Shown piece after piece: positions 5,802-55,111 of a stretch of 64,000 nucleotides of DNA (its first letter is position 1; each line of letters opens with the position of its first letter). This stretch comes from a virus: positions 32,001 to 96,000 of IMG/VR virus record IMGVR_UViG_3300042887_004758, one strand, 5' to 3'. The position numbers and the translations under genes are program-made. The notes beneath the pieces were generated by a model that was given only the letters and a program-made list of their open reading frames with translations, was not told where the DNA came from and searched no databases.

Positions 5802-8585
5802 TCAATTGAAATTATATTTCAAACTAAAATTGACATTTGATCCCATCCTTGTTTCTTGCCATCTGTTGTCCCCTTCATCCAATTTTTCATTACCGTTAAG
5901 GTCTTGGAACATCACCAAATCTTGTGAGAGTAAATCTCTAACATTAAATTTCATTTCAATATTTCCGAATTTTTTGGAAACCTGAAGATCAATCAAATTT
6001 CGCCCATTTTCCCAAACCGATGGTTCTTGAATATTTCCGACGATGAAGATTCTCGGACCGACCATATTGTAACTTGCGGAAACATTCCAATTATTTTGTG
6101 TGTTATATAACAAACCAAAGTTATAAACATAAGGTGATTGACCCTGTAATGGTCTTCCATTTTCAGATCCCTCAAATCCATTCAAATCAACTTCAGATTG
6201 AACCAATGAAACATTGGATGTAAGATTTAGATTGTCAATCAGATTTATTTTACCTTCAAATTCAATACCTCTGATAAACGCACTTTCAACATTCGAATAA
6301 TAAATCTCTGGTGCCCCTGAAACACCAGTTCTATTAATCAATTCAATTGGATTGGTTAAGTTCTTGTTGAATATCGAAATAGAAAAAATCTCATTTAAAT
6401 CGGGATAAAACTCAAACCTTACTTCTTGGTTATTTATTTTTGTTCTTTCTAAATATGGATTTCCTGTGATGATATTATCTTGAATAAAGTTGTAGAAGGT
6501 GAAGGGTGCGAGTTCTCTAAATTCAGGTCTTGAAACACTTGAATATACGGACGACCTAAGTTGGGTCTTTTCATTTATTGTATAAACAAAATTGAATGAA
6601 GGTAAGAAGTCAGTTATATTACTATTAATATGAATTGGTTTATTTGAACCAAATTCTGTGTAGAAAAAGTTTTGATTGTAATTTTCAATTCTTACACCAT
6701 AGATAAATCTGAATGATTTATATTTTGTATCAAATGATGTATATCCCGCCCCTAATGTGGAGTTTGCATTATAACTATCATCCACATTGGTTGATTCATC
6801 TAATTTAAAACCACCCATCCCATTGTCCAATAGTCCCATATTTTCTTGTGAAAAAATCTGACTTGGATCCAAAAGAAGTAATGAACTATCAAAATAACCG
6901 TTTTGTGGTTTGTATTGTGAATAACCTAAGTTACGAGAGATAAAATTTCTATCTCTGTGTTGATACATCCCACCTATCTTCACTTCATTTTCAAATGAAC
7001 CGAGTGTTATATTTCTTGACCAATCTAATTTTCCTGAATATAGATCTTCATCAGAATAAGACCAAAACATATTTCCCGCTGCGGTGGGGATAGTTCCATT
7101 TGATTGTATTACAGCAGTATATTGTGTATTTGGATCATCTTCATTCAAAGAATATTTTCGGTAAACTATTCTTCTTAAGTTTGGAATATCTCTTCTAACA
7201 TTGTTGTAACTCAAATTCCAATTCAACTTTGAATTTATGATGTTGTGAGTTCCAATTAACTGTTGTGATAAAAAGTTATTTTGTGTATACCAAAAATTTG
7301 TGGATCTTTCCCATTGTCTTGGGTCATTATCCATCTCTCTTACACCTTGTCTTACGTTAATTCTATCTTCAGAATTTATGGTGTAAAAGTTCTTTAATTT
7401 TATGGTATTATTAGGATTTAATAACAAAGAAAAATTAAGAAGACCACTGTTTGCGATATTGTGAACAAAAACTGAGTCATTAAGTTCCATCTTTTGAACA
7501 ACACCCAAACTTTGTTCTTCAAAATCTCTTCTTGTTGTAGTGGTGGTATTAAACTGACTTGAATAATTATAAGCTCCGCTTAAAAGAAGGGTTCTACTTC
7601 CAAATGAATAATTTTTTCCTACTGAATATTGAAAAGTAGAAGATACAGGTGCTTTTCTTGAATATGTTGACCAATCCGTTTGAATCAACGATGCAAGTTC
7701 AGCTCTTTCTTGTTTGGATAAATTTACAAACTCAGAAGTGTTTGGAATATTGTCGGGTAAACATCTAAATTCCGATCCCAACCCAATTGGATCCATCGGA
7801 CTCCCTCTGTAAGTTCCAAAGTCTTGGAAGGTGGTCATCGTGTTGAATGATGTTCCGATCTGAAAATTCTGATATGTCACTTCCTTCGGATCTGTTGTAT
7901 TGATGTTAATTAAACCACCTGAGAATTCACCAGAGAGATCAGGTGAGGACGATTTATTAACATACAAGTTGTCAATCATATTGGAAGGAAACAAATCAAA
8001 TGAAAATGCTCTTCTATCTGATTCGGTTGAAGGGAGAGGAGTTCCATTGATATAAGCGAAGTTATATCTATCGTTTAAACCCCTGATAATAACAAATTTA
8101 TTTTCTTGTATTGTTACACCCCCAACTCTTTTGAATACATCGGATGCTTTAGCGTCGGGTGTTTTACTAAAAACCTCTGAAGAAACACCATCAATAACTG
8201 ATGCTGATCTTTTTTGTAAAGCAATCATCTGTGTTGCAGATTGTTGATTTGCCTGAGCAACAACTGTGGCCTCACCTATTTCCAAAAAGACGGGGTTAAG
8301 AGATACATCAACAACCCCACTTTTTCCAACCATATTTATACTTTCAACTGAAGTGTCATAACCGATAAAACTGAATCTAACATTATAAACCCCTGAAGGA
8401 ATATTTTGAATTGAGAAGTTTCCATCAAGGTCACTCATCGTCCCTTTACCTAATTCCTCAATATATACCGTTGCACCAATCAACGACTCCCGTGATTGAG
8501 AGTCGTTGACCGTGCCAGATAAATTATATTGTGAAAATAAACAAAAAGGTAAGAATAAAAATATAAATAAGTTGAAGTATTTCAT
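5802..8585 (-). CDS. TonB-dependent outer-membrane receptor (Bacteroidota type)
   Basis: Signal peptide, carboxypeptidase-regulatory-like N-domain (LIGATV, FSFIGY), plug (IIRGLNDRYN), barrel motifs SRPEFRELAPF and GNPYL, terminal YNF. Confidence 0.93.
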   Translation of the reverse strand: MKYFNLFIFLFLPFCLFSQYNLSGTVNDSQSRESLIGATVYIEELGKGTMSDLDGNFSIQNIPSGVYNVRFSFIGYDTSVESINMVGKSGVVDVSLNPVFLEIGEATVVAQANQQSATQMIALQKRSASVIDGVSSEVFSKTPDAKASDVFKRVGGVTIQENKFVIIRGLNDRYNFAYINGTPLPSTESDRRAFSFDLFPSNMIDNLYVNKSSSPDLSGEFSGGLININTTDPKEVTYQNFQIGTSFNTMTTFQDFGTYRGSPMDPIGLGSEFRCLPDNIPNTSEFVNLSKQERAELASLIQTDWSTYSRKAPVSSTFQYSVGKNYSFGSRTLLLSGAYNYSSQFNTTTTTRRDFEEQSLGVVQKMELNDSVFVHNIANSGLLNFSLLLNPNNTIKLKNFYTINSEDRINVRQGVREMDNDPRQWERSTNFWYTQNNFLSQQLIGTHNIINSKLNWNLSYNNVRRDIPNLRRIVYRKYSLNEDDPNTQYTAVIQSNGTIPTAAGNMFWSYSDEDLYSGKLDWSRNITLGSFENEVKIGGMYQHRDRNFISRNLGYSQYKPQNGYFDSSLLLLDPSQIFSQENMGLLDNGMGGFKLDESTNVDDSYNANSTLGAGYTSFDTKYKSFRFIYGVRIENYNQNFFYTEFGSNKPIHINSNITDFLPSFNFVYTINEKTQLRSSVYSSVSRPEFRELAPFTFYNFIQDNIITGNPYLERTKINNQEVRFEFYPDLNEIFSISIFNKNLTNPIELINRTGVSGAPEIYYSNVESAFIRGIEFEGKINLIDNLNLTSNVSLVQSEVDLNGFEGSENGRPLQGQSPYVYNFGLLYNTQNNWNVSASYNMVGPRIFIVGNIQEPSVWENGRNLIDLQVSKKFGNIEMKFNVRDLLSQDLVMFQDLNGNEKLDEGDNRWQETRMGSNVNFSLKYNFN

Positions 8586-8586
8586 T

Positions 8587-10179
8587 TTACTTTTGTATTA
8601 CAAACTTCTGAACATCATTGGATGTTTGAATGAAATAAATTCCATCTTCAAAGTTTGAAAGATTGATTGTGGTTGGTGCATAATCCTCATAAACTCTTTG
8701 ACCCACCTGATTCATCACGAAGATGGGAGTTCTATTTGGTGAAACAACATTCAAAAAGTCAGAGGTTGGGTTGGGGTAAATTGTGAAGTTGGATGTGGTT
8801 TTGTTGTCAACACCGATCACAACAGGATTTGACAAAAGTGGATGTGTGAAATCCGCTCCCAAAGCTGGTGAATTACTTTCGCTAAGTCTAGCATCAGGAG
8901 TCAAACCCAAATCAACAAACAAATTAACCCAATCAATTTGTTCAACTGTTGTTGTTGAGTCGTTGTTGTTTACACCGAAGAATGAGTTGTAAAAATCCTC
9001 CGTTCCTGAAACACAATTTGAACCATTCGGAAGATCAGCCAAAATATTATTTGCAAACACCAAATCTCCGATTGTTACATTCACTTGTGACGAAATACCT
9101 TCAATTGACACGCCTTTTTCCCAACCTGTAACCAAAGAATTGAAGATAGAAGTTGAGGTGTTTCTTCTCAAACGAAATGCCTTTTCAAAGGTCTCACCAT
9201 TTGGAAGAGTTTCTGTAACATCATCACCAAATGGTCCAACCAAAGTTACATTAGAAAAAACAGGTGAGGTTAGAGGTTCATTAGGAGATCCTTGACCATC
9301 GTTGTCTGATTCAAATGAGTTAGAGTCACCAACTGCATCATACATATATTTGTTTCTAATTGACAAAACAAATTGAACTTTTCCTCTGTAACCAAAGTCT
9401 GTGTCAAAATCATCATCAATACCACTATAAGCGATGAGGTGCTTACAATTTACAGTTCCACCGAACCATTCAAATGAATCATCACCTGAATAAGATACTT
9501 GAACATTATTTACATAAGTCCCTGAACCGACAGAACCAAAGGTAATGCCGTTGATTTCTTTATTTGGTTCAAGAGCAATACCACAAAATTCAACTCTAAC
9601 ATATTCTAATATACCTGAGTTGTCATTATCATCAGTTCCACCGTATTCAGTATCCGAAGAGGCTGGAATACCTTCGATATTTGCAATACCACCAGGTTGA
9701 TTATTGATTGCATTACCCAAAATAACTAATCCTCCCCAATCACCCTCAGCTCTCTCACCCACAGGTTGATTGGATGTAAAAACGATGGGTTGGTCTTGTG
9801 TCCCTTGTGCAATAATTTTGGAACCTTTCGTGACAATCAAAGTTGCTTGTGTTGATGCGTCTCCTCTGATAATTGTTCCTGGTTGAATTGTCAAAACCGC
9901 ACCATTTTTGACATATATTTTGTTTTGGAGTTCAACAACACCTCCGATGGTTGTATTAACCGTAATATCAGAAGAAAGGATCATAGACGGGGTTGGGTAT
10001 TCTGTGTTTTGTGGATCCCAATTTGTCCATCCATAAGTCCAATCGGTGGCTGTTGTGTTGTCAGTCACAGGGAAGGCACCTCTGTAGTTTACATAATCCC
10101 AAGTCCATTCTTGAGCATTAGTCGTCAAAAGACCCATAAATAGTGACAGGGTCAGCAAAATTTGTTTTCTCATAATCAT
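8587..10179 (-). CDS. Secreted beta-helix protein with T9SS type A C-terminal sorting domain
   Basis: Signal peptide; GDWGGLVILG, DDSFEWFGG and DDDFDTDFGY motifs; C-terminal FTIYPNPTSD...GIYFI...QKFVIQK. Confidence 0.85.
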   Translation of the reverse strand: MIMRKQILLTLSLFMGLLTTNAQEWTWDYVNYRGAFPVTDNTTATDWTYGWTNWDPQNTEYPTPSMILSSDITVNTTIGGVVELQNKIYVKNGAVLTIQPGTIIRGDASTQATLIVTKGSKIIAQGTQDQPIVFTSNQPVGERAEGDWGGLVILGNAINNQPGGIANIEGIPASSDTEYGGTDDNDNSGILEYVRVEFCGIALEPNKEINGITFGSVGSGTYVNNVQVSYSGDDSFEWFGGTVNCKHLIAYSGIDDDFDTDFGYRGKVQFVLSIRNKYMYDAVGDSNSFESDNDGQGSPNEPLTSPVFSNVTLVGPFGDDVTETLPNGETFEKAFRLRRNTSTSIFNSLVTGWEKGVSIEGISSQVNVTIGDLVFANNILADLPNGSNCVSGTEDFYNSFFGVNNNDSTTTVEQIDWVNLFVDLGLTPDARLSESNSPALGADFTHPLLSNPVVIGVDNKTTSNFTIYPNPTSDFLNVVSPNRTPIFVMNQVGQRVYEDYAPTTINLSNFEDGIYFIQTSNDVQKFVIQK

Positions 10180-53763: not shown

Positions 53764-54237
53764 ATGAAAGACCTGATCAAAAAAATATTAAAAGAGGAAA
53801 CATCAGATCTCAAACCCGCATTGATTAAAGCATTCTATGGTTTCATGGAAATGGAGACACAAGGTTATGAGATTTATGTTGATATTCCTGAAAACAGATT
53901 TAGATACAATCCTGAGTCCATTTGGATCATCAATCCAAAGACCAAAGGATGGATTATAGGATTACTAAAATCAGGAAAACTTTGGTATTATGGCCCACTT
54001 TACGACAATTTTTTAAATTGGTTTAATGAGGAACGTTCTGTATTTGAACAACTTATAAGGATGTGGGTGGAGGACGTTCTCAAAAGAGGGGTATTAACAA
54101 TTCCGGTCCCAATGCCGGCAGCGATCCGTTCGGTGGGGGACGTTCTCAAAAGAGGGATATTAACAACACGGTTTCACTTCGCTCCAGGGGACGACCGGGT
54201 GGAAGACGTTCTCAAAAAAGGAATTAAAATATCATGA
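53764..54237 (+). CDS. Small protein with IKKILKEE leader and in-frame CRISPR-like array at the C-terminus (paralog A)
   Basis: TATTTAT at 53750; clear paralog of 54234; C-terminus VEDVLKRG x3 at a 22-aa period. Confidence 0.8.
   Translation: MKDLIKKILKEETSDLKPALIKAFYGFMEMETQGYEIYVDIPENRFRYNPESIWIINPKTKGWIIGLLKSGKLWYYGPLYDNFLNWFNEERSVFEQLIRMWVEDVLKRGVLTIPVPMPAAIRSVGDVLKRGILTTRFHFAPGDDRVEDVLKKGIKIS
54066..54233. CRISPR. CRISPR-like mini-array: 3 x 36-nt repeats, 2 x 30-nt spacers, inside a CDS
   Basis: R1 54066-54101 GGTGGAGGACGTTCTCAAAAGAGGGGTATTAACAAT; S1 TCCGGTCCCAATGCCGGCAGCGATCCGTTC; R2 54132-54167 GGTGGGGGACGTTCTCAAAAGAGGGATATTAACAAC; S2 ACGGTTTCACTTCGCTCCAGGGGACGACCG; degenerate R3 54198-54233. 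Confidence 0.65.
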
Positions 54238-54641
54238 AAGACCTAATCAAGAAAATATTAAAAGAGGAAACATCGGATATCAAACCGTCTTTGATCAGAG
54301 CATTCTATACTTTCATGGAGATGGAAATGGAGGGTTATAACATTTATGTAGATACTCCTGAAAATAGATTTGAATACAATCCTGAATCCATTTGGATTAT
54401 AAATCCAGACACTAAAGGATGGATTATAGGATTTAAAAGGTTCGGAAAACTTTGGTATAACACTCAACTTTACGAAAATTTTTTAATTTGGTTTAAGGAG
54501 GACAAATCTGTATTTGAACAACTTATAACGATGTGGGTGGAGGACTTTCTAAGAAGAAAAGTGTCAACAATACGAATGATTTACACCGATATGAATCCCG
54601 AGGTGGAGGACGTTCTCATTACAGGAATTGAACTACAATGA
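54234..54641 (+). CDS. Small protein with IKKILKEE leader and in-frame repeat-spacer-repeat unit (paralog B)
   Basis: ATGA coupling to paralog A; high similarity over the first ~100 aa. Confidence 0.8.
   Translation: MKDLIKKILKEETSDIKPSLIRAFYTFMEMEMEGYNIYVDTPENRFEYNPESIWIINPDTKGWIIGFKRFGKLWYNTQLYENFLIWFKEDKSVFEQLITMWVEDFLRRKVSTIRMIYTDMNPEVEDVLITGIELQ
54536..54637. CRISPR. Degenerate CRISPR-like repeat-spacer-repeat inside a CDS
   Basis: R 54536-54571 GGTGGAGGACTTTCTAAGAAGAAAAGTGTCAACAAT; S ACGAATGATTTACACCGATATGAATCCCGA; R 54602-54637 GGTGGAGGACGTTCTCATTACAGGAATTGAACTACA; period 66 nt. Confidence 0.5.
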
Positions 54642-55111
54642 AAGACTTAATCAAAAAAATTTTAAAAGAGGAAACAGAAGAGGTATTGGTAATACCGGGT
54701 TTTAATATTTTTCTTGATGGTGAAGAAGGATTACTTAATTTTTTGAGAAAATACGGTCATAAAAAATGGTCATTTAATGATGATTTAGATTTTTTCAACA
54801 GAAAAATTCTTGTAACTCTTTTTGATAACCCTGAAGACCTAAAATATTTAAATAATTTGGTTGATGTTTATGGTGAACTTGATCTTTATAGGGTTAAAGA
54901 TTTAAAAAGTTTAAATAATTTAAAACGTGTGTATGGTAATATGGATATTCGTGGAACTTCAATCACATCGTTAGATAGTTTGGAATATGTTGAAGGTGCT
55001 TTAAGGGTTAATTCAAAACTTATTGAACCAATTCTTGAACGAATAAAGTCAGGGAAACTTAAAGTTGAGGAACTATATCATTATTTCGACCAAGTACCAC
55101 TACCCGAATAA
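54638..55111 (+). CDS. IKKILKEE-leader protein with LRR/receptor-L-like repeats
   Basis: LKYLNNLVDVYGELDL / LKSLNNLKRVYGNMDI / ITSLDSLEYVEGALRV. Confidence 0.75.
   Translation: MKDLIKKILKEETEEVLVIPGFNIFLDGEEGLLNFLRKYGHKKWSFNDDLDFFNRKILVTLFDNPEDLKYLNNLVDVYGELDLYRVKDLKSLNNLKRVYGNMDIRGTSITSLDSLEYVEGALRVNSKLIEPILERIKSGKLKVEELYHYFDQVPLPE

What the first reader, a model, noticed from the sequence alone, without database searches (positions are those of the whole stretch)
54066..54233. CRISPR-like 36+30 array translated in frame as the C-terminus of a phage protein, with no cas gene in the window
Seen: three 36-nt repeats (consensus GGTGGAGGACGTTCTCAAAAGAGGGGTATTAACAAC, internal hairpin TTCTC-AAAA-GAGGG) separated by two unrelated spacers of exactly 30 nt. 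The 66-nt period equals 22 codons, so the array reads through as VEDVLKRGVLT-IPVPMPAAIRS-VGDVLKRGILT-TRFHFAPGDDR-VEDVLKKGIKIS. The spacers are 20/30 and 19/30 G+C in an AT-rich genome, so they look foreign. The last repeat is degenerate, as in real arrays, and ends exactly at the next gene's ATG. Known: 36-nt repeats with 30-nt spacers are the geometry of type II and type VI-B arrays. The 3' half GAGGGGTATTAACAAC closely resembles Bacteroidota Cas13b repeat ends as I recall them (e.g. ...GAAGGGTATTCACAAC; needs database confirmation). Inference, three non-exclusive models: (a) the gene presents a Cas1-Cas2 integration site, so host spacer acquisition adds frame-preserving 22-aa units with a random 10-aa loop (CRISPR-driven protein diversification); (b) the late mRNA doubles as pre-crRNA that reprograms or decoys host Cas13b/Cas9; (c) the small protein is itself the RNA-binding partner of guides cut from its own mRNA.
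Basis: partly seen in the sequence, partly recalled or inferred. Interest (0 to 1): 0.93.

Follow-up and report, generated by a model that had tools for sequence, protein, structure and literature searches.

The report
CRISPR-type array translated as phage protein
The tail of a small gene in a giant freshwater phage is laid out base for base like a CRISPR array (36-base repeats, unrelated 30-base inserts) yet is kept readable as protein, and in a related phage one insert copies a bacterial gene, so DNA capture seems to write new 10-residue peptides into a phage protein.

Summary
Three 36-nt repeats with two unrelated 30-nt inserts lie in frame at the 3' end of a 157-aa gene. The next gene is a paralog with two more repeats. 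The genome is a large T4-like phage of Bacteroidota with no cas gene.

Across relatives the period is always 66 nt. I counted 251 unrelated 10-aa cassettes in 148 array versions. None of 87 distinct DNA cassettes has an in-frame stop, against 32 and 45 in the other sense frames. Cassettes are GC-richer than the phage (0.46 vs 0.34). The constant 36-nt unit is out of codon register, and shifted by one base between lineages.

One cassette of a relative matches a Cytophagales dehydrogenase gene at 28/30. The repeats resemble published Flavobacterium type VI-B repeats: 26/36 in relatives, 18-19/36 here.

I read this as a CRISPR-derived array co-opted as a hypervariable protein tail, probably filled by a 36/30 Cas1-Cas2 ruler. 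No protospacer was found for this window's own cassettes. The integrase is unidentified. The crRNA and decoy models have no support.

I found no paper describing this. The scan has noted the same phenomenon on other genomes.

The parts
53764..54237 (+). Gene A, 157 aa: about 100-aa N-terminal domain of unknown fold plus an array-encoded tail
   Evidence: ORF. 269 homologs. AlphaFold pLDDT is 85-94 over residues 20-100. No Pfam or PHROG family.
53764..53802 (+). Shared leader MKDLIKKILKEET, conserved at DNA level on three tandem genes. Possibly a T4-type capsid-targeting sequence (inferred).
   Evidence: Repeat family D2. Regex hits at 53764, 54234 and 54638 only. A T4-type prohead protease PF03420 is in the genome.
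54066..54101 (+). Repeat 1 (36 nt). Its first G is the third base of the Trp codon. It encodes the end of the last helix of the N-domain (VEDVLKRGVLT).
54102..54131 (+). Cassette a (30 nt, 67% G+C). Also found in relatives, alone or in second place.
   Evidence: identical in L011, P0005, P0007.
54132..54167 (+). Repeat 2 (36 nt, 94% identical to repeat 1; both differences change the amino acid).
54168..54197 (+). Cassette b (30 nt, 63% G+C). It is the only cassette in P0008 and P0024.
54198..54233 (+). Terminal degenerate repeat 3. Its 3' half holds the conserved C-terminus GIKIS and abuts the next ATG.
54234..54641 (+). Gene B, paralog (135 aa, 83% nt identity over 300 nt) with its own one-cassette array
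54536..54571 (+). Repeat B1
54572..54601 (+). Cassette of gene B (30 nt, 40% G+C). Identical in L015 and L016, so an older cassette.
54602..54637 (+). Terminal degenerate repeat B2, ending at the ATG of gene C
54638..55111 (+). Gene C: same leader, unrelated LRR-like body, no array

Best explanation
The 3' end of gene A (and of its paralog B) is a CRISPR-derived repeat-spacer array that has become part of a protein-coding gene. The 36-nt repeat encodes a 12-residue helical core (VEDVLKRGVSTT type). It is a copy of the last helix of a roughly 100-aa domain. Each 30-nt cassette encodes 10 residues of essentially random sequence.

New units arise by a DNA-level event that duplicates exactly 36 bp and inserts exactly 30 bp of captured DNA, at least sometimes bacterial (probably host) chromosomal DNA. 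They enter mostly at the gene-proximal end. The 66 bp add 22 codons, so the frame is kept. Cassettes with an in-frame stop are purged. Old cassettes drift toward the phage's AT-rich composition, and are lost, duplicated or traded by recombination between repeats.

The only known enzyme with a 36/30 ruler is the Cas1-Cas2 integrase that fills type II-C and VI-B arrays of Bacteroidota. I infer that a host enzyme of that kind writes the cassettes, since no phage fragment carries cas1.

The product is a hypervariable small protein. From its T4-like leader it may be packed in the head and injected.

Shown: the geometry, the translation constraint, the DNA-level unit, the foreign composition, one donor match, and kinship to VI-B repeats. 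Inferred: the integrase, ongoing activity, and the role of the protein.
For: (1) Geometry. All repeat pairs are 66 nt apart: 90 hits at period 66 and none at 63-65 or 67-69; 162 of 163 protein periods are 22 aa. L144 has 9 identical 36-nt repeats with 8 unrelated cassettes, with exactly 36 conserved columns and 30 unconserved.
(2) Translation. 0 of 87 distinct cassettes carry an in-frame stop, against 32/87 and 45/87 in the other sense frames.
(3) DNA-level unit. In GTG/GTA/ATG-type lineages, including this one, the base before the Val codon is G in 46/47, and the third base of codon 12 is free. In the GTT-type lineage it is the reverse, so the 36-nt unit is shifted by one base. The last cassette residue fits an NNG codon in 88/90.
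(4) Foreign origin. Cassette G+C is 0.46, with no codon-position bias, against 0.34 in the loci and GC3 0.31-0.33 in the N-domains. Amino-acid use tracks codon number.
(5) Donor. L144 cassette 1 matches a Leu/Val-dehydrogenase-type gene co-terminally. There are 13 hits among 401 Cytophagales genomes at 3 or fewer mismatches, the best 28/30; the reversed-pattern control gave 0. Mismatches fall mostly at third codon positions.
(6) Polarity. The first cassette has G+C 0.477 and the last 0.399 (paired p = 0.009). Long relatives share their 3' cassettes and differ at the 5' end.
(7) Kinship. Up to 26/36 identity to the F. columnare VI-B repeat, in the same register; shuffles gave mean 12.0, sd 2.0, and a maximum of 22 in 17,600.
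(8) Turnover. 251 cassette clusters in 148 array versions, with only one internal duplicate. P0005 is 95% identical to gene A and exactly one unit shorter.
Against: No cas1 in about 850 kb of ten phage fragments, though none is complete. No array with this repeat core in 185,579 species genomes. Three Cytophagales relatives of the donor have Cas1-linked arrays with 30-nt repeats and 35-36-nt spacers, not 36/30. Only one cassette has a donor match, and none of this window's own. The repeat core evolves like a coding sequence, with third-position variation and AGA/CGN Arg swaps. Repeat ends differ between lineages, so one integrase specificity cannot serve all. Arrays occur only in this gene family, which host off-target integration alone does not explain. 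Shared-cassette positions show no strict polarity. The orientation relative to VI-B repeats is ambiguous for this lineage.
Confidence: 0.7

Rival explanations
1. An ordinary tandem helix-loop protein repeat. It grew by unequal crossing-over of 66-nt units. The cores are homogenised by gene conversion, and the loops are driven apart by diversifying selection.
For: The core is under protein-level selection. Whole-unit duplications exist (L150; P0185). Old cassettes show codon indels of 11 aa. Remote homologs have a helix, loop, helix end with a diverged second core. AlphaFold predicts helices for the cores.
Against: Identical repeats flank wholly unrelated cassettes. Only 1 of 148 arrays has a duplicate cassette. 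The conserved block is exactly 36 nt, out of codon register, and shifted by one base between lineages. Cassettes are GC-richer than the genome and lack codon-position bias. One cassette matches a bacterial gene at 28/30. The repeat matches a published CRISPR repeat at 26/36.
Confidence: 0.07
2. A working phage-borne CRISPR mini-array. Its RNA supplies or decoys guides for host Cas13b or Cas9, and translation is incidental or needed only to keep coupling to the next gene.
For: Likeness to VI-B repeats. Cas-less arrays and repeat decoys in viruses are known (own knowledge; bioRxiv 10.1101/2024.10.29.618823). ATGA coupling to the next gene could by itself select against stops.
Against: The repeats fold no better than shuffles (z -0.3 to -1.0), whereas a true Cas13b repeat gives z -3.0. 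The repeat interior varies at synonymous sites. In the best-matching lineage the mRNA is the antisense of the VI-B repeat. No matching host repeat was found. No Rfam CRISPR-DR hit on the repeats.
Confidence: 0.15
3. The same translated array, but written by an unknown phage-encoded integrase or other dedicated phage machinery rather than by host Cas1-Cas2.
For: Arrays are confined to one gene family across lineages whose repeat ends differ. No matching host array was found. Every phage contig is incomplete, at 11-63%.
Against: No Cas1 homolog in about 850 kb of phage DNA. The 36/30 ruler and the repeat likeness point to the II-C/VI-B adaptation module (PMC8092290). No candidate gene is linked to the arrays in the loci read.
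Confidence: 0.2

Closest known systems
Type VI-B (Cas13b) CRISPR arrays of Bacteroidota, filled in trans by type II-C Cas1-Cas2 (Flavobacterium columnare; PMC8092290, PMC5395568)
   Same: 36-nt repeat and 30-nt spacers. Repeat sequence likeness: 26/36 for relatives and 18-19/36 for this window, with G-TGG and ACAAC-type ends. The last repeat is degenerate. Spacers can come from the bacterial chromosome. No adaptation genes lie next to the array.
   Different: It lies inside a phage gene and is read as protein with no stop in any cassette. The repeat interior evolves under protein selection. There is no stable repeat hairpin and no effector or cas gene in the genome fragments. Length variants (28-32 bp in F. 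columnare) are absent.
Cas-less mini-arrays, solitary repeat units and RNA anti-CRISPRs or crRNA-like regulators carried by viruses (own knowledge: Medvedeva 2019, Faure 2019, Camara-Wilpert 2023; bioRxiv 10.1101/2024.10.29.618823)
   Same: A virus carries CRISPR-type repeats without cas genes.
   Different: Those are non-coding RNA genes. Their repeats closely copy the host repeat, and they act through host Cas proteins. Here the array is coding and no host repeat matches.
Off-target ('neo-CRISPR') spacer integration by Cas1-Cas2 (own knowledge: Nivala, Shipman and Church 2018; cited in PMC6698737 and PMC7054753)
   Same: A ruler-defined duplication of non-CRISPR DNA flanks a captured spacer, which can seed a new array.
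   Different: That was shown in E. coli type I-E under over-expression. It has not been shown in phage genes, and the arrays were neither maintained nor translated.
Diversity-generating retroelements of phages
   Same: Targeted hypervariation of a phage protein's C-terminal part.
   Different: DGRs mutate adenines through a reverse transcriptase and a template repeat. They insert no foreign DNA and leave no repeat-spacer layout.
T4 internal proteins (IPI-III) with a shared capsid-targeting leader (own knowledge)
   Same: Tandem, polymorphic small genes share a short N-terminal leader ending in L-x-E. The phage is T4-like and has a gp21-type protease.
   Different: No arrays are known in T4 internal proteins. 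Packaging of this protein is untested.

Membership tests
CRISPR array (generic) | Direct repeats of one fixed length separated by unique spacers of near-fixed length | tested here: met
   36 + 30 nt in the window. Only period 66 occurs in 57 loci. L144 has 36 fully conserved and 30 unconserved columns.
CRISPR array (generic) | Spacers derived from other DNA (protospacers) | tested here: inconclusive
   One cassette of relative L144 matches a Cytophagales dehydrogenase gene at 28/30, with 0 hits for the control. No match for the window's own cassettes.
CRISPR array (generic) | Polar addition of new units next to a leader, with old or degenerate units at the far end | tested here: inconclusive
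   A terminal degenerate repeat is present. G+C falls from the first to the last cassette (p = 0.009), and long relatives share their 3' ends. Shared-cassette positions are mixed.
CRISPR array (generic) | cas genes in the same genome (cas1/cas2 or an effector) | tested here: not met
   No Cas1 in G000 or in 9 other phage records. No PADLOC cas hit in the large ORFs. All records are incomplete.
CRISPR array (generic) | Non-coding, transcribed and processed into crRNA | tested here: not met
   The array is in frame in an ORF, and 0/87 cassettes have an in-frame stop. Processing cannot be tested here.
Type VI-B (Cas13b) direct repeat | 35-36 nt with complementary GUUG/CAAC ends and a U-rich loop, giving a stable fold (PMC11662929) | tested here: not met
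   The length is met. The ends are GGUG...CAAU/CAAC and the loop is AAAA. The fold is -3.0 to -3.9 kcal/mol with z near 0, against -11.3 and z -3.0 for the PspCas13b repeat.
Type VI-B (Cas13b) direct repeat | Sequence likeness to known VI-B repeats | tested here: met
   Relatives reach 26/36 against F. columnare and 25/36 against F. branchiophilum, in reverse complement and the same register. Shuffles reached at most 22. The window repeats reach 18-19/36 forward, about 3 sd above shuffles.
Rfam CRISPR-DR families | Covariance-model match | tested here: not met
   No hit on the repeats at E up to 10.
T4-type internal (injected) head protein | N-terminal capsid-targeting leader cleaved by the prohead protease; presence in virions | not testable with these tools
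   A leader ending L-K-E is shared by three tandem genes. A PF03420 protease is present. No proteome data.

The most novel reading that the evidence does not exclude
CRISPR adaptation machinery is routinely used, or hijacked, to write pieces of host chromosome into a phage gene as translated 10-residue cassettes. That would make it a spacer-driven protein diversification system acting on a small, possibly injected, phage protein. The gene's own coding sequence would serve as leader and repeat.
Probability: 0.45. Interest if true: 0.95.

Novelty: categorically new. Interest (0 to 1): 0.88.

Why it matters
CRISPR arrays are taken to be non-coding memory banks, and Cas1-Cas2 is taken to serve immunity only. 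Here the same repeat-spacer architecture is kept open for translation in 87 of 87 distinct cassettes. It holds DNA of foreign composition, and in one case a traceable copy of a bacterial gene. If capture is ongoing, this would be a new way of making protein diversity: templated insertion of random peptides. It would also be a new link between phages and the host adaptation machinery, and a natural record of phage-host contacts, since cassettes would name hosts. The claim can be tested directly with amplicon sequencing of one locus during infection of cas1+ and cas1-deleted hosts.

Tried and rejected
- Rfam on the region gave no CRISPR-DR hit on the repeats.
- Pfam, PHROG and PADLOC on genes A-C gave nothing useful.
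- GenBank phages by blastn gave no match to the locus or the array.
- IMG/VR exact 27-mers of both window cassettes gave none.
- Searching for self-targets in the 110-kb contig and all loci gave none.
- The 3' 26 nt of the repeat in 185,579 species genomes gave 0.
- A two-copy core pattern gave 91 loci, none with a related repeat. The nearest was an Alphaproteobacteria 36+30 array at 22/36.
- BLAST of the window array, of L144 cassettes 2-8 and of the L154 arrays against about 400 Cytophagales genomes gave only background-level hits.
- Fold search of the AlphaFold model found no PDB fold. BFVD returned only uncharacterised phage paralogs.
- I rejected a conserved repeat hairpin: the stem register differs between lineages, and folding energies equal those of shuffles.
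- I rejected strict leader-end-only growth: shared cassettes sit at either end or in the middle.
As a result there was no read mapping and no DNA for most of the long arrays.

Full report
**What is there.** Three 36-nt repeats lie at 54066, 54132 and 54198 of the window. They are separated by two unrelated 30-nt segments and sit in frame at the end of ORF 53764..54237 (157 aa). The ORF's stop overlaps the next ATG. The next gene, 54234..54641, is a paralog with 83% nt identity over 300 nt. It carries two further copies of the repeat at 54536 and 54602, again 66 nt apart. A third gene, 54638..55111, shares only the first 13 codons.

**The genome.** The window is bases 32001-96000 of a 109,981-bp IMG/VR contig estimated 36% complete. 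It encodes a T4-type portal, large terminase, tail sheath, prohead protease and B-family polymerase. It also encodes a TonB-dependent receptor and a protein with a type IX secretion sorting domain. It is therefore a large T4-like phage of Bacteroidota. No Cas1 and no PADLOC cas protein is present in this contig. Nine related phage fragments also lack Cas1, about 850 kb in all.

**The family.**
- The protein has 269 homologs of similar length. Their lengths step by 11 or 22 residues.
- Their C-termini hold one to at least six units. Each unit is a constant 12-residue core (VEDVLKRGVSTT type) followed by a 10-residue segment that cannot be aligned between proteins.
- 162 of 163 core-to-core distances are exactly 22 residues.
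- Remote homologs at 30-50% identity have the same 12+10 layout with their own version of the core. Longer relatives reach 7-11 units.
- In all I counted 251 cassette clusters in 148 different array compositions. Only one array had an internal duplicate.
- The window's cassette a recurs alone (P0005, 95% identical to gene A and one unit shorter) and in second place (P0007, L011). Cassette b recurs alone (P0008, P0024).

**It is translated.** I located arrays on DNA of 57 loci without using ORF calls. None of the 87 distinct cassettes has a stop in the gene's frame. The other two sense frames have stops in 32 and 45 of them. The core varies mainly at third codon positions and swaps AGA with CGN Arg codons, so the peptide is under selection. 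The first repeat forms the end of the last helix of a confidently predicted domain (pLDDT 85-94). That domain matches no solved fold.

**The unit is nevertheless defined on DNA.**
- Only period 66 occurs, with none at 63-65 or 67-69.
- In L144, nine repeats are identical over exactly 36 columns, and the 30 columns between them show no conservation.
- In the window's lineage the base before the Val codon is G in 46 of 47 cases, while the third base of the twelfth codon is free. In the GTT-type lineage it is the other way round.
- So the 36-nt block is shifted by one base against the reading frame between lineages.
- At protein level, the last cassette residue fits an NNG codon in 88 of 90 cassettes. 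About 27% of residues at other cassette positions do not fit one.

**The cassettes look foreign.** Their G+C is 0.46, or 0.51 in the window's near relatives. They show no codon-position bias. The loci have G+C 0.34 and the N-domains GC3 0.31-0.33. Their amino-acid use tracks codon number, as random DNA would give. The gene-proximal cassette is GC-richer than the last one (0.477 against 0.399, paired p = 0.009). Long relatives share 3' cassettes and differ at the 5' end. This fits entry at the gene-proximal end followed by drift toward phage composition.

**One donor was found.**
- The first cassette of L144 aligns end to end with a Leu/Val-dehydrogenase-type gene of a Bacteroidota genome at 27/30.
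- In 401 genomes of that genome's order, 13 carry it with at most 3 mismatches, the best at 28/30. The reversed pattern hit none.
- The order is that of Lunatimonas lonarensis, i.e. Cytophagales.
- The loci have 56-61% G+C. The cassette is the antisense copy, and the mismatches are mostly synonymous.
- I estimate the chance expectation of such a full-length match at about 0.01 over all cassettes tested.
- No other cassette gave a match above background, including the window's two.

**Relation to CRISPR.** Published Flavobacterium type VI-B repeats are 36 nt with 30-nt spacers (PMC5395568 Table 4). In F. columnare they are filled in trans by the II-C Cas1-Cas2, mostly with 30-bp spacers and partly from the chromosome (PMC8092290). 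Phage repeats of the GTT-type lineage match the reverse complement of the F. columnare repeat at up to 26/36 in the same register. In 17,600 shuffles the mean was 12.0, the sd 2.0 and the maximum 22. The repeats lack the stable fold of a true Cas13b repeat (z -0.3 to -1.0 against -3.0). No host array with this repeat was found. The Cas1-linked arrays of three Cytophagales relatives of the donor are 30/35-36, not 36/30.

**Reading.**
- Best supported is a CRISPR-derived array co-opted as the hypervariable tail of a phage protein. It grows by ruler-defined insertion of captured DNA and is filtered for an open frame.
- The writer is inferred to be a host II-C-type Cas1-Cas2. A phage-encoded writer is not excluded.
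- An ordinary protein repeat is very unlikely.
- A primary role as guide RNA or decoy is not supported.
- The shared leader ending L-K-E, in a phage with a gp21-type protease, suggests an internal head protein. That is inference from T4 biology.

**Prior knowledge.** Six literature searches found no description of translated repeat-spacer arrays. Notes of this scan report the same phenomenon on other phage genomes. I reached the main results before reading them. From them I took only the lead to PMC5395568 and the reverse-strand comparison, which I then tested.

Noticed in passing
window 5802-10179 (-): A phage-borne TonB-dependent receptor (Plug, beta-barrel and CarboxypepD_reg domains) sits next to a protein with a type IX secretion C-terminal sorting domain. 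These are host-like outer-membrane genes in a T4-like phage.
   Followed up: no
window 50409-51935 (-): An Fe/Mn superoxide dismutase domain is fused to about 260 further residues of unknown family.
   Followed up: no
window 25381-45780 (+): Several large genes contain long Thr/Pro-coding tandem repeats with periods of 6-60 nt. They account for the 38 period-60 hits and are unrelated to the array.
   Followed up: no
L012:2959-3024: In one sub-lineage the last 'cassette' is a conserved imperfect palindrome encoding DHFVDTNNMV. It is followed by a degenerate repeat that contains the stop codon and continues as non-coding DNA.
   Followed up: partly
L150:2942-3073: One repeat-plus-cassette unit is duplicated in tandem. 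Its AT-rich cassette (DYFEYTNNTL) recurs in L151, and with point changes in L153, so it is an old cassette evolving as protein.
   Followed up: partly
L185, L186, L187 (Cytophagales genomes G342, G793, G750): Large Cas1-linked CRISPR arrays have roughly 30-nt repeats ending ATTGAAAT and 35-36-nt spacers. The period is the same (65-66 nt) as in the phage arrays, but the repeat/spacer split is the opposite.
   Followed up: no
L071 (Alphaproteobacteria MAG OZ246977.1): A true 36+30 array has a repeat that shares 22/36 with the phage repeat, including CTCAAAAGAG and an ACAAC end.
   Followed up: no
P0194 (331 aa): A protein shares the first 30 or so residues (leader plus start of the N-domain) with gene A and then continues into unrelated sequence. 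This is consistent with recombination at the shared leader.
   Followed up: no
window 54063-54227 (+), alternative frame: The +1 frame through the window's array is also open (54 aa, Gly/Arg-rich). In the family at large, the other frames carry stops in 37-52% of cassettes, so this is probably chance.
   Followed up: partly
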